From Podarcis pityusensis (lineage: Eukaryota), in NCBI GenBank assembly GCA_964106645.2, contig OZ067051.1: a stretch of DNA of 64,000 nucleotides. The stretch is one strand, 5' to 3'. Position 1 is the first letter of the stretch. The number at the start of each line of letters is the position of its first letter. The position numbers are program-made. Shown here in pieces: positions 9,701 through 12,700 of the stretch.

Positions 9701-12700
9701 TTTTGGCTTTTTTTTTAACCAGAGGAGCTCCTGAACAACTTTGCCCAGCAGATTGGCGCCTGGAGATTCTGCCTCTATTTCCTGTCGAGCACAAGAAATG
9801 ACTATGTAATGATGTACAGTTTGACAGTGTTTGAGGTAAGGTACTAGGCAAGAGTAAACTTGCTCAAAGCATGCCTCTTACAAGTTCTGTTTCACTCCGT
9901 TAACTCTGTTGTGGTGATAATTCGAGCTGGTCCAGGGGTATGGATAGCCTTGGGTCCCCAGATGGTATTGGACTATAACTCCCATGAGCCCTGGCCAGCA
10001 TGGTTGCGAATGATAGGTACTATAGTCCAGTAACATCTGGGGACCCAAGGTTGGAAAAGGCTGCCTTAGATTATTCTTCCGCTATACCATCAGATTGTTT
10101 GCTGTGTTTAATGACAACGTTTTGCACTATGAATATTTCCCATTCCATACATCAGCAGAGGTGATGAGTTTGAATTGATTTTTTGTAACCCTGATTTAAA
10201 GATAGCAAATGTTGGTCTCCTGTTATTCTTACAGATGGGTTTTTCTTTTGGCAGACAGATTTCCATTATCTTGTTTATTTATTGCATTTTATGAGATAAT
10301 TCCCAAGAATTTCAGTCTAGCCTTAGTATTAATGATCACCATTAAATATATCCCTTGTTTTTTGTTAGCTGTCTTGAAAGGTTAAATATTTTCTGCTCTG
10401 GCCATGAACAGAGGACATGCTTTAGGTGCTAAGTAGTAGGGTTACAATTTCCCCTCTTTACGATTCCCTCTTGGGAATACATCGTTCAATTGTAAGCAAG
10501 TATTTTACTGTTTAATTCCATTACTAAGTAAATATTCTGAAGCAGATTTCCAGATAGTCAGCATTTTCCTAGATTTGGTATTGTGCCCTCTAGGTTAATA
10601 TGATGACTGTCAGCTCTTAATAGTAGCCATAAGCAAGATATTTCAAAGATTCCAAGTTTAGTACAAAATGACACCTCACTTTCTTTTGTTCTTCCCACAG
10701 AACCTGATTAACAAGATGTGGCTTGGGGTTCCATCACAAGATAAAATGGAGATTCGCAGCTGCCTGCCCAAGCTTCTTTTGACTCACCACAAAACTCTGC
10801 CTTACTTCATTAGGAACAAACTTTGCAAAGTCATTGTGGATATTGGCCGGCAAGACTGGCCAATGTTCTACCATGACTTCTTTACAAACATCTTACAGGT
10901 AAGGCAGTCCTTAGAAAATCCTTGACTGAAGTCGGCTTTCTTGAGCATGTCCAAATGAAAAATTTGAGAGAGGGAATGATGGCCTAATATGTTAGTACAT
11001 TTTCAGTTTTCTTGTTGAAGGGAAACCAAAGGATAAAATTGTGATGTGTTTCCTAAAAATCCTTTCATTTTGTTAAAGCCTAGCTTGTCTTACATAAATA
11101 TATCATCTTCAGTAACACAGCTGTCTAAAATCTGCTAACTTTTAGTTCTAGTATAAGAGAGCATGCTATGAACCCAAGTGCCATAGCTAAAATTTTCATT
11201 TAGCCATGCTCTTATTTGAATCATCTCACCATCTCTCTACTTCAGCATGCTATCTGTAATATGCATATAATAAACTAGTCTACCTTTCAAAGTTAGTGTT
11301 AGAATTATGTGATATATATTGCCCTCAGAAAACAGCATTTTATAAATGCACGTTGTATTATTAGAATTGCCATATCACAGGGAGCTAGCATTTTCAAGTA
11401 AATGATTAAAAATCTGTACTGTTGCTTAGACTGGCTTCACACATTGCTTATTCTGGTGTGGAAGTCCATCTCCGTGCCAGGAAAAGCAGGTATTGTGTTA
11501 TGTGTGAACAGTCTTGCCAGTGTCTGTCAACTTGGGGGACATCCATTATGTGTAATGGCTACACAAAGTTGACAGACACTGGCAAGACTGTTCACACATA
11601 ACACAATACCTGCTTTTCCTGGCATGGAGATGGACTTCCACACCAGAATAATTGGTCCTCCAGAGATGCACTCTGTTGTAACATGTAAGTGCATCTCTGG
11701 AGGACCAATTCCTGTATTATGCTGGTACCATTTTTTATTTTTTTTTTCTTTTCTCTCTCATTCAATATTCCAGGTAATTTTTGCCCTTCTGTTTACTACA
11801 ATGAATATATAGCTCTTTCCCACTTTGTCTTTCCACTGATGTCTTTGGGACTAGAAGATGGCATGTAGAAGCTTTCCTGTTCAAAAACACTGTAGAGATA
11901 AGATGTCTGCATTCTAAGGCTAAATTTATTGCCCCCCCCCCCCTTTAGAACTCTGTAGTTCATCTACCAAATTCAAAGAAGCTGTTGTCTGCTAATACTT
12001 AAACCTGACTTTCCTAACAGTTGATCCAATCCCCTGCGACAACTCCACTTGGGCTGATCATGCTGAAGACGACATCGGAAGAGTTGGCATGCCCACGGGA
12101 GGACCTCAGCATAGCAAGGAAGGAAGAGTTGCGCAAACTGCTCCTGGAGCAGGTTCAGACTGTCCTTGGGCTTCTCACAGGTTAGTGGAAATGACAGACA
12201 TGTGGTGGTGGAGGGGGCAGCATCCTTGTATTAAAGCAGTACAAAATATGAGACCCTGATGAGACAACGGTCATAACTTCCTCTGACATAAGAATACAGC
12301 AGAACTATTAATTCTCGTGACGCCTAAGCAAACAATATGGAGCTCTTCTTCAAGGCATGTACTGAGTTCCTCTGTCAGGCTTGGAACAATGCTTTCCCTG
12401 GGTGCAGGAGCAGCCTTAGTTTACATGAAACTGTTACTTAATGTGGTATAATGGGAACTCTCATGCAATTGCTGGGGATTTTGCTCTTCTTTTCTGATAG
12501 GTATTTTGGAAAGCATCTGGGATAAGTACAGTGTCACTGCTGCCACTCCACCACCATCTCCAACTTCAGGAGAAAGTGGTAAGGTTTGAACTAATCGTTA
12601 ATGATTTTTAAACTGTGGATTAAGACCTACCTACGTGGGAAGAACTATGAGGTGTTGTCCATTAAAGAAAAGAAATTCATTTCTCAAGCTGTAGGGGAGC

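What the first reader, a model, noticed from the sequence alone, without database searches (positions are those of the whole stretch)
11448..11710. Back-to-back double hairpin in XPO6 intron 4: possible two-sided snap-back repair scar and long-dsRNA source
Seen: an 86-bp inverted repeat with one mismatch (a G-U wobble in RNA) directly abuts a perfect 23-bp inverted repeat with a 15-nt loop. The two overlap by only 2 nt (AA, 11650-11651). The 32-nt spacer of the first repeat holds its own mini-hairpin, ccatta-tgtg-taatgg. The arms match no other repeat in the window and I see no TIR/TSD signature. Inference: the A-A'-B'-B layout is what results if both ends of a double-strand break fold back, extend and join by microhomology (polymerase-theta-type templated insertion). 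Near-identity of the arms implies a recent event. Because it is transcribed inside XPO6 pre-mRNA, it would give about 86 bp of dsRNA (ADAR or Dicer/hpRNA substrate) plus a stem-loop of pre-miRNA size.
Basis: partly seen in the sequence, partly recalled or inferred. Interest (0 to 1): 0.72.

Follow-up and report, generated by a model that had tools for sequence, protein, structure and literature searches.

The report
Fold-back duplication hairpins in XPO6 intron
Two adjoining hairpin-forming inverted repeats in an intron of a reptile-type exportin-6 gene look like the fresh scar of DNA synthesis that folded back and copied its own strand in steps, which is a known and ordinary kind of mutation with no sign of a function so far.

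Summary
An 86-nt inverted repeat (one mismatch, 32-nt spacer) abuts a perfect 23-nt inverted repeat (15-nt loop), sharing 2 nt. Both are far beyond chance. They lie in a 1,122-nt GT-AG intron between two consecutive exportin-6 exons.

New evidence: 12 of 13 nt in the right half of the 32-nt spacer are two staggered 6-nt reverse-complement copies of the sequence just upstream. The mirror reading explains 6 of 15 nt. Chance is about 0.001-0.002, for a statistic chosen post hoc. This fits stepwise fold-back copying on the + strand, with the left arm as template.

The only arm mismatch sits at the arm's only CpG, which suggests real in-genome decay.

Not shown:
- that both sides of one break folded back;
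- that polymerase theta did it: an 86-nt tract far exceeds its usual tracts, and replication template switching fits the sizes better;
- that the 2-nt overlap is a real microhomology (chance about 0.16);
- that any RNA role exists: no Rfam family reaches threshold.

A low-copy MITE and an assembly artefact cannot be excluded, because no host-genome or read search was possible. Interest is low to moderate.

The parts
10701..10898 (+). XPO6 coding exon upstream of the intron (exon 4 if an ATG-bearing exon 1 lies upstream)
   Evidence: Open frame. Matches Pfam Xpo1 profile positions 1-33, E 2.1e-06. A GT donor follows directly.
10899..12020 (+). Intron (1,122 nt, GT-AG) that holds the double hairpin
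   Evidence: Donor read and acceptor. The flanking exons match consecutive Xpo1 profile positions, 1-33 and 37-87.
12021..12179 (+). XPO6 coding exon downstream of the intron
   Evidence: Open frame. Matches Pfam Xpo1 profile positions 37-87, E 1.1e-06.
11428..11444 (.). Left-flank stretch that resembles part of arm A' (11585-11599) in direct orientation; borderline and unexplained
   Evidence: 15 matches with one 2-nt gap, score 24. 14 of 1000 flank shuffles reach that score; the natural-sequence 99th percentile is 25.
11448..11533 (.). Arm A of the 86-nt inverted repeat; inferred to be the original sequence and the template
   Evidence: Arm defined. Polarity inferred. The strand-composition test was only weakly in favour (1.3 nats).
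11473..11474 (.). The only CpG in 11448-11710. Its partner site in arm A' (11625) reads T, and this is the single arm mismatch
11534..11552 (.). Left part of the spacer; inferred to be original sequence running up to the fold-back point
   Evidence: It is not explained as a copy of anything: the mirror reading covers 6 of 15 nt, and no source was found nearby.
11553..11558 (.).
11560..11565 (.). Second short reverse-complement copy, of 11549-11554; its template overlaps the first copy by 2 nt
   Evidence: Significance.
11566..11651 (.). Arm A', inferred to be the newly made 86-nt reverse-complement copy of arm A
11650..11651 (.). The 2 nt shared by arm A' and arm B' (junction)
   Evidence: Coordinates. 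The chance of an overlap of 2 nt or more is about 0.156 (own arithmetic).
11650..11672 (.). Arm B' of the 23-nt perfect inverted repeat
11673..11687 (.). 15-nt loop of the second hairpin
   Evidence: It holds only a 4-nt reverse-complement pair and a 6-nt self-palindrome.
11688..11710 (.). Arm B of the 23-nt perfect inverted repeat

Best explanation
The large repeat (IR1) is a local inverted duplication. It was made by DNA synthesis that folded back on its own strand and copied it in steps.

On the + strand a 3' end lay near 11552. It made a 6-nt copy (11553-11558), added one base, and made a second 6-nt copy whose template includes two bases of the first (11560-11565). It then re-primed at the end of arm A and copied 86 nt (11566-11651). 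That copied end was joined at the edge of the small hairpin (IR2).

IR2 either arose in the same event at the other side, or it was already there. If it was already there, it may itself have stalled a fork or provoked a break.

The trigger (replication template switch or break repair) and the polymerase are not resolved.

Afterwards the one CpG in the copy decayed to TpG. The element is transcribed as part of the XPO6 pre-mRNA and would fold into about 86 bp plus 23 bp of duplex RNA. Most likely it is a neutral passenger.

Shown: the anatomy, its uniqueness in the window, the staggered copies, the CpG mismatch and the intron position. Inferred: the order of steps, the polarity, the mechanism and the RNA fate.
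For: - The repeats are far beyond chance.
- There is no second copy in 64 kb, while the same comparisons do find resident dispersed repeats, which cover 4.9% of the window. These include a three-copy MITE family with arms 88-93% alike.
- The only 'duplications' flanking either repeat are self-complementary (TA, AT, AATT), so the inverted repeat itself explains them.
- 12 of 13 nt at 11553-11565 are reverse-complement copies of the sequence just upstream, against 6 of 15 nt for the mirror reading. P(coverage of 12 or more) is 0.00095 for random 13-mers, 0.0020 for real 13-mers and 0.0015/0.0019 for natural sequence on the two strands.
- The axis of the mini-hairpin (11550.5) lies 1 nt from the axis of IR1 (11549.5), by the coordinates.
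- Short snap-back tracts of 8 and 15 nt interspersed with untemplated bases are described for polymerase theta (passages of PMC4912351). Early aborted rounds are said to enable longer synthesis (abstract and passages of PMC7165422).
- Template-switch copies of 90-125 bp are reported in humans, as is an adjacent 62-bp plus 32-bp pair (passages of PMC9435742). Template switching is reported to create perfect hairpins in introns in one event (passages of PMC10710096).
- The single mismatch falls on the only CpG: 2 of 86 arm positions belong to it. That is what decay in a methylated germline genome would produce.
Against: - No related genome, second haplotype or read set could be searched, so no pre-event allele has been seen and genome-wide copy number is unknown.
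- The coverage statistic was devised after I saw the pattern.
- An 86-nt continuous tract is far longer than typical polymerase-theta tracts.
- IR2 shows no internal polarity signal.
- The TA dinucleotides at 11449-11450 and 11649-11650 are also what a Tc1/mariner-type insertion would leave.
- The left-flank similarity to arm A' is not explained by this model.
- The strand-composition test of which arm is native was weak: 1.3 nats, and 62% of true-strand 86-mers give the right sign.
Confidence: 0.55

Rival explanations
1. The reader's specific version, which is a special case of the best explanation. [quoted passage not shown]
For: - The A-A'-B'-B layout, with exact abutment and a 2-nt shared junction.
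- Staggered 6-nt snap-back steps on the left side, on the scale reported for polymerase theta.
- Inverted-repeat templated insertions attributed to intramolecular hairpin priming are described (passages of PMC7165422).
Against: - Primary tracts are 'rarely more than 10 bp' and templated insertions are 3-30 bp, against 86 nt here.
- The 2-nt overlap has a chance probability of about 0.16 (own arithmetic).
- Nothing in IR2 shows that B' rather than B is the new arm.
- A pre-existing IR2 or a replication template switch gives the same sequence.
Confidence: 0.2
2. One or two miniature inverted-repeat transposable elements, or a piece of a larger mobile element with internal palindromes, inserted into the intron. 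IR1 would be a 198-nt element (11451-11648) flanked by a TA duplication.
For: - The window holds real palindromic MITEs: three copies of a family with TA-flanked ends, and a 103-nt palindromic element at 9948-10050.
- TA lies at both ends of IR1.
- Nearly palindromic MITEs that give hairpin RNAs are known: Made1, with 37-bp inverted repeats around 6 bp, the source of mir-548 (abstract of PMC1784062).
- A family of a few thousand copies would usually be absent from any other 64 kb, so in-window uniqueness is weak evidence.
Against: - There are 0 further copies in the window, although controls are detected.
- The arms are 99-100% alike, against 88-93% for the resident MITEs.
- The ends do not resemble those of the resident TA-flanked family.
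- The TA is self-complementary, so the palindrome already explains it.
- Two unrelated palindromes abutting exactly would need a coincidence.
- The staggered copies in the spacer are not expected for a transposon interior.
- Translations of the two open frames across arm A, one of which also spans IR2, match no predicted protein: 1 artefactual hit in 1.84 billion representatives, and none in two word-index searches. This is weak evidence.
Confidence: 0.2
3. An assembly or library artefact. A chimeric fold-back read, or two contig ends each folded back by the assembler or by a polymerase in vitro, was joined at 11650-11651.
For: - The layout is what two folded-back ends joined together would give, whether that happened in a cell or in silico.
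- No read data could be consulted.
Against: - The arms differ at one site, and it is the only CpG. That fits in-genome decay better than a copy made in silico or in vitro.
- The window holds no N or gap.
- The repeat sits inside an intact GT-AG intron between consecutive exons.
- The arms are short, whereas fold-back read chimeras typically mirror whole inserts (recalled, not tested).
Confidence: 0.12
4. A selected RNA gene: an intronic miRNA or hairpin-RNA locus kept paired by selection rather than by youth.
For: - Very stable predicted RNA structure on the transcribed strand.
- New miRNAs are reported to arise from template-switch hairpins in introns (PMC10710096).
Against: - 16 of 16 Rfam matches are below their gathering scores (best is 42 bits against 90) and are mirrored on both strands. 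Nothing in the region passes at gathering level.
- The IR2 stem is 23 bp with no basal extension, shorter than the roughly 35-bp stem of canonical pri-miRNAs (recalled criterion).
- Perfect pairing without bulges looks like a new duplication, not a processed miRNA precursor.
- No comparative or small-RNA data are available.
Confidence: 0.03

Closest known systems
Short-range template-switch mutations (TSMs; Loytynoja and co-workers)
   Same: Both give a reverse-complement copy of nearby sequence, placed within tens to hundreds of bp, with no target-site duplication. Both can create a perfect hairpin in one event, often in introns. The sizes fit: reported events reach 90 bp in complex sequence and 119-125 bp overall, and one adjacent pair of 62 and 32 bp is on record (passages of PMC9435742; PMC10710096).
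   Different: TSMs are called by comparing ancestral and derived alleles, which I could not do. Here the long copy is preceded by two 6-nt staggered copies, a detail not needed in the four-point TSM model. The supplementary figures that show the longest human events were not available to me.
Polymerase-theta templated insertions (snap-back synthesis, SD-MMEJ)
   Same: Both involve inverted copies of flanking DNA made by intramolecular priming, several aborted rounds with single extra bases between them, and short junctional microhomology (passages of PMC7165422; PMC4912351). The two 6-nt steps match the reported scale.
   Different: The 86-nt continuous tract is several-fold beyond the usual range: 3-30 bp insertions, with primary tracts rarely above 10 bp. 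Enzyme dependence cannot be read from sequence.
Palindromic MITEs that give hairpin RNAs (Made1 / mir-548)
   Same: Both are short, nearly perfect palindromes in transcribed DNA that fold into stable hairpins, and TA lies at the ends of IR1 (abstract of PMC1784062).
   Different: Made1 is a dispersed family with many paralogues. Here no second copy was found in the window and the ends are unlike those of the resident MITE family. The genome-wide count is untested.

Membership tests
Template-switch mutation (TSM) | Reverse-complement copy of sequence lying within tens to hundreds of bp | tested here: met
   A' is the copy of A, 32 nt away. B and B' are 15 nt apart.
Template-switch mutation (TSM) | Copy length within the range documented for such events | tested here: met
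   86 and 23 nt here, against reported events of 90 bp in complex sequence, 119-125 bp overall, and an adjacent 62 + 32 bp pair (passages of PMC9435742).
Template-switch mutation (TSM) | Derived allele explained from an ancestral allele by one switch-and-return path | not testable with these tools
   No orthologous or alternative allele was available.
Polymerase-theta templated insertion | Inserted tract identical or reverse-complementary to flanking DNA | tested here: met
Polymerase-theta templated insertion | Tract size 3-30 bp, with primary synthesis rarely above 10 bp | tested here: not met
   The two 6-nt steps fit, but the main tract is 86 nt (against passages of PMC7165422).
Polymerase-theta templated insertion | Microhomology of 2 bp or more at the final junction | tested here: inconclusive
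   2 nt are shared at 11650-11651, but the chance of an overlap of 2 nt or more is about 0.156 (own arithmetic).
Polymerase-theta templated insertion | Dependence on POLQ | not testable with these tools
   This is a historical germline event and no genetics is possible from sequence.
MITE (Tc1/mariner-, hAT- or other TIR-type) | Terminal inverted repeats | tested here: met
   Trivially met by any inverted repeat.
MITE (Tc1/mariner-, hAT- or other TIR-type) | Target-site duplication flanking the element | tested here: inconclusive
   Only self-complementary candidates (TA, AT, AATT) were found, and no direct repeat of 5-10 nt at any of 7 inward offsets. TA cannot be told apart from an extension of the palindrome.
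MITE (Tc1/mariner-, hAT- or other TIR-type) | Multiple dispersed copies | tested here: inconclusive
   0 further copies in 64 kb, although the resident families are detected. The genome-wide count is not testable here.
Canonical miRNA precursor / known miRNA family | Score at or above the Rfam gathering threshold of a family | tested here: not met
   16 of 16 matches are below threshold, and most are mirrored on both strands. The only match at gathering level in the whole window is a tRNA-like hit at 57633-57691.
Canonical miRNA precursor / known miRNA family | Stem of about three helical turns with single-stranded basal flanks (recalled criterion) | tested here: not met
   The IR2 stem is 23 bp; 8 of 20 flank positions are complementary beyond it, and it abuts the 86-bp stem directly.
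Canonical miRNA precursor / known miRNA family | Small RNAs mapping as a miRNA/miRNA* duplex | not testable with these tools
   No expression data were available.

The most novel reading that the evidence does not exclude
A single germline break or fork collapse in XPO6 intron 4 was repaired with both ends folded back. The left end records three successive fold-back rounds (6 nt, 6 nt, then a processive 86 nt). That would be a natural vertebrate record of snap-back synthesis being handed over to long-tract copying. In one step it would also create an 86-bp plus 23-bp dsRNA module inside a housekeeping pre-mRNA, which is now raw material for editing or small-RNA production.
Probability: 0.15. 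Interest if true: 0.5.

Novelty: new member of a known kind. Interest (0 to 1): 0.3.

Why it matters
If real, the locus is a well-preserved single example of how a perfect long hairpin is born in one mutational episode inside a transcribed intron. The intermediate short copies are still readable, so the order and direction of the steps can be inferred from one sequence. Such events are the proposed raw material for new miRNA and hairpin-RNA genes. They are also potential fragile sites and ADAR substrates. The locus makes a sharp, cheap prediction about the empty allele, and any related genome or second haplotype can test it. It does not by itself open a new question: thousands of smaller events of the same kind are already catalogued in humans.

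Tried and rejected
- **Known RNA families.** Rfam at permissive threshold over 10500-12700 gave 16 matches. All were below their gathering scores (best: mir-3927 at 42 against 90 bits, mir-5879 at 40 against 97, mir-9223 at 33 against 53), and most were mirrored on both strands, so they are generic perfect-hairpin matches. At gathering level nothing in the region passes. ARAGORN found no tRNA in the window.
- **Kinship of IR2 with the palindromic element at 9948-10050.** The local alignment score of 16 equals the median of 398 random window chunks. Rejected.
- **Arms as a fragment of a coding gene or a TE-derived exon.**
  - The 76-aa open frame over A' and IR2, searched against 1.84 billion representatives, gave 1 hit. 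That hit is a tandem-repeat translation with 18 short stretches, not a relative.
  - The 63-aa second open frame over arm A gave no hit in either the 'longer' or the 'near' length class.
  - Neither frame matches Pfam.
  - All of this is weak negative evidence.
- **Sources of the unexplained spacer and loop pieces nearby.** Only scattered 6-8-mers turned up.
- **Which arm is native, from strand composition.** The log-likelihood ratio is 1.3 nats in favour of arm A. Inconclusive.
- **Right-flank similarity to the core.** 262 of 1000 shuffles do as well. Rejected.
- **Polarity signal in the IR2 loop.** None beyond a 4-nt pair.
- **Exon borders.** I took the borders from the ORF coordinates and from coordinate reads.
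- **Not done.**
  - No search of the host genome, related squamate genomes, reads, RNA-seq or small-RNA data. The genome collection holds only bacteria and archaea, so I did not use it.
  - Supplementary figures of PMC9435742 that show the longest template-switch events could not be seen.
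Full report
**What is there**

Reading 11200-11950 and a repeat scan of 11000-12200 confirm the finding exactly.
- IR1 has arms 11448-11533 and 11566-11651: 86 nt, 99% complementary, 32 nt between them.
- IR2 has arms 11650-11672 and 11688-11710: 23 nt, 100% complementary, 15 nt between them.
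- The inner arms share 11650-11651.
- The one mismatch pairs G at 11474 with T at 11625.
- The spacer holds a perfect 6-bp stem, 11543-11548 with 11553-11558, and a 4-nt loop.
- The window has no N.

**Is it more than chance?**

Yes.
- In 30 of 30 first-order Markov simulations of 64 kb, the longest exact inverted arm with a spacer up to 1000 nt was 12-16 nt. The real window has 59 nt; the 86-nt arm is split 26 + 59 by the mismatch. IR2's 23 nt also exceeds every simulation.
- As RNA, 11430-11730 folds at -220.8 kcal/mol, z = -28.5, and 0 of 100 shuffles fold as well. As DNA it folds at -138 kcal/mol, z = -27.7, 0 of 100.
- Among the 22 inverted-repeat pairs found in the whole window, only IR1, IR2 and one 18-nt pair are 99% complementary or more.

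**Context**

The window is a + strand exportin-6 gene.
- The exon at 14089-14538, searched on its own, is 96% identical to exportin-6 of birds, turtles and Anolis, and 91% identical to primate proteins. I therefore take the contig for a sauropsid, not human. 'Lacertid' was not verified.
- The hairpins lie in a 1,122-nt GT-AG intron, 10899-12020.
- The flanking exons match consecutive positions of the Pfam Xpo1 profile, 1-33 and 37-87. Nothing coding is missing between them.
- The exon at 7447-7536 aligns to residues 2-31 of a named turtle exportin-6. The start codon therefore sits on a further upstream exon, and 'intron 4' is a fair number.
- Exons were searched one by one. I did not build or search a joined spliced model.
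- The structure starts 550 nt after the donor and ends 310 nt before the acceptor.

**Is it a member of a repeat family?**

Within the window, no.
- With blastn at word size 7, the only matches with E below 0.9 were the self match and the two self-inverted matches. The other 13 of 16 rows were 12-22 nt at E 0.93-3.3.
- In a window self-comparison, 2 of 36 off-diagonal matches touch the region, and both are the hairpins against themselves. The same run finds resident repeats covering 4.9% of the window.
- Those resident repeats include a three-copy MITE family with TA-flanked ends and arms 88-93% alike.
- A suspected likeness between IR2 and the palindromic element at 9948-10050 is at chance level: score 16, which is the median of 398 random chunks.
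- The only flanking 'duplications' are self-complementary (TA, AT, AATT) and follow from the palindromes themselves. No direct repeat of 5-10 nt was found at any of 7 inward offsets.
- TA at both ends of IR1 is nevertheless what a Tc1/mariner-type element would show.
- A family of a few thousand copies would normally be absent from the other 64 kb. In-window uniqueness is therefore weak evidence, and the genome-wide test could not be run.
- Translations of the two open frames across arm A, one of which also spans IR2, match nothing real in the protein collections or Pfam.

**New internal evidence**

Listing every reverse-complement pair of 5 nt or more in 11526-11573 gave two, besides the inner ends of the main arms.
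- The second is 11560-11565, which copies 11549-11554. Its template overlaps the first copy by two bases.
- So 12 of the 13 nt between the loop and arm A' are reverse-complement copies of sequence lying just upstream. The mirror reading, with the left half of the spacer as the new part, explains only 6 of 15 nt.
- Coverage of 12 or more has P = 0.00095 for random 13-mers after the true context, 0.0020 for real 13-mers, and 0.0015 and 0.0019 for natural context plus natural 13-mers on the two strands.
- I chose this statistic after seeing the pattern, so these values are indicative only.
- The mini-hairpin axis (11550.5) is 1 nt from the IR1 axis (11549.5).

Together this reads as three successive fold-back primings of one 3' end moving rightward on the + strand: 6 nt, one extra base, 6 nt, then 86 nt. 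It makes arm A the template and arm A' the copy. A strand-composition test of the same question was weak, at 1.3 nats.

**The mismatch**

Positions 11473-11474 are the only CpG in 11448-11710, and the partner site in A' reads TpG. Only 2 of the 86 arm positions belong to a CpG. A difference falling exactly there fits deamination in a methylated genome after the copy was made. A G:T misincorporation during copying is the alternative. Either way it argues mildly against an in-silico or in-vitro origin.

**Age**

There are 0 differences at 108 paired non-CpG sites. The 95% upper bound is about 7, 14 or 28 My for assumed rates of 2e-9, 1e-9 or 5e-10 per site per year. 'Recent' holds only on that scale, and conversion between the arms could also keep them alike.

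**Mechanism compared with what is known**

- Passages of PMC4912351 describe polymerase theta alternating between untemplated addition and snap-back tracts of 8 and 15 nt.
- PMC7165422 reports templated insertions of 3-30 bp, primary tracts rarely above 10 bp, insertions from 1 to 157 bp, and inverted-repeat insertions attributed to hairpin priming. It also says early aborted rounds create longer microhomology that makes later synthesis more processive.
- The two 6-nt steps fit this picture well. The 86-nt tract does not.
- Passages of PMC9435742 report human template-switch events of 90 bp in complex sequence and 119-125 bp overall. They also report one individual with adjacent 62-bp and 32-bp events separated by 16 bp. 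Its supplementary figures could not be seen.
- PMC10710096 reports that template switching creates perfect hairpins in one event, often in introns.

The sequence is therefore a good member of the general class 'local template-switch or fold-back inverted duplication'. It cannot be assigned to one enzyme or trigger.

**The 'two-sided' claim**

- Exact abutment of two palindromes suggests a shared cause.
- The 2-nt overlap arises by chance extension with P of about 0.156 (own arithmetic, equal base frequencies).
- IR2 has no internal polarity signal: its loop holds only a 4-nt pair and a 6-nt self-palindrome.
- IR2 may equally have been there first and provoked the stall or break at its base.

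**Unexplained**

The left flank at 11428-11444 resembles 11585-11599 of arm A' in direct orientation, with 15 matches and one 2-nt gap. 14 of 1000 flank shuffles reach that score, and the natural-sequence 99th percentile is 25 against the observed 24. This is borderline. It could mark an older quasi-palindrome that was later expanded, or it could be chance.

**RNA reading**

- On the transcribed strand the intron would form about 86 bp plus 23 bp of duplex. Editing by ADARs is a reasonable expectation from general knowledge, but it is untested.
- The pre-miRNA idea fails the tests I could apply. 16 of 16 Rfam matches are below gathering scores, and most are mirrored on both strands. Nothing in the region passes at gathering level. 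The IR2 stem is 23 bp with no basal extension, since 8 of 20 flank positions are complementary.

**Verdict**

The best reading is a fairly young local inverted duplication made by stepwise fold-back synthesis (confidence 0.55).
- A low-copy MITE (0.2) and an artefact (0.12) remain open, because neither the host genome nor reads could be searched.
- A selected RNA gene is unlikely (0.03).

It is a new member of a known kind. Its interest is modest, and its main value is the sharp prediction it makes about the empty allele.

Noticed in passing
window 33946-34217, 35848-36081, 61146-61375: Three copies of a MITE-like family, 230-272 nt long, with TA-flanked terminal inverted repeats of about 25-27 nt that are 88-93% complementary. 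They served as a positive control for repeat detection.
   Followed up: partly
window 9948-10050: A 103-nt palindromic element (30-nt arms, 93% complementary, 43-nt spacer) in the preceding XPO6 intron. It is not related to IR2 beyond chance.
   Followed up: yes
window 11428-11444 and 11585-11599: The left flank of the large repeat resembles an inner part of arm A' in direct orientation: 15 matches with a 2-nt gap, and 14 of 1000 shuffles do as well. It may be the remnant of an older quasi-palindrome, or chance.
   Followed up: partly
window 2761-3118, 7869-8219, 59464-59812: A dispersed repeat of about 350 nt has three copies, the third on the opposite strand by its ORF translation. It shows up in the window self-comparison and as near-identical ORF translations. 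Not classified.
   Followed up: no
window 27602-28627 (+): A 341-aa open frame matches the C-terminal part of the reverse-transcriptase domain (Pfam RVT_1, E 3.9e-16). It is a LINE fragment inside an XPO6 intron, on the gene's strand.
   Followed up: partly
window 46000-48000 and 48952-49768 (+): A GC-rich stretch (GC 0.594) downstream of XPO6 is followed by two exon-like frames that match consecutive parts of the nucleoside diphosphate kinase domain (profile positions 1-41 and 38-75). This is a neighbouring NME-type gene with a likely CpG-island promoter.
   Followed up: partly
window 57633-57691 (-): A tRNA-like match just above the Rfam gathering score (34 against 29 bits) that ARAGORN does not call. 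It is probably part of a tRNA-derived SINE.
   Followed up: no
window 11727-11760 and 11933-11945: A T-rich tract begins 17 nt after the second hairpin, and a run of about 13 C lies further down the same intron. Neither was linked to the hairpins.
   Followed up: no
window 3965-4333: Another inverted repeat: 32-nt arms, 91% complementary, 305 nt apart. It partly overlaps a stretch that is repeated within the window, 3942-4302.
   Followed up: no
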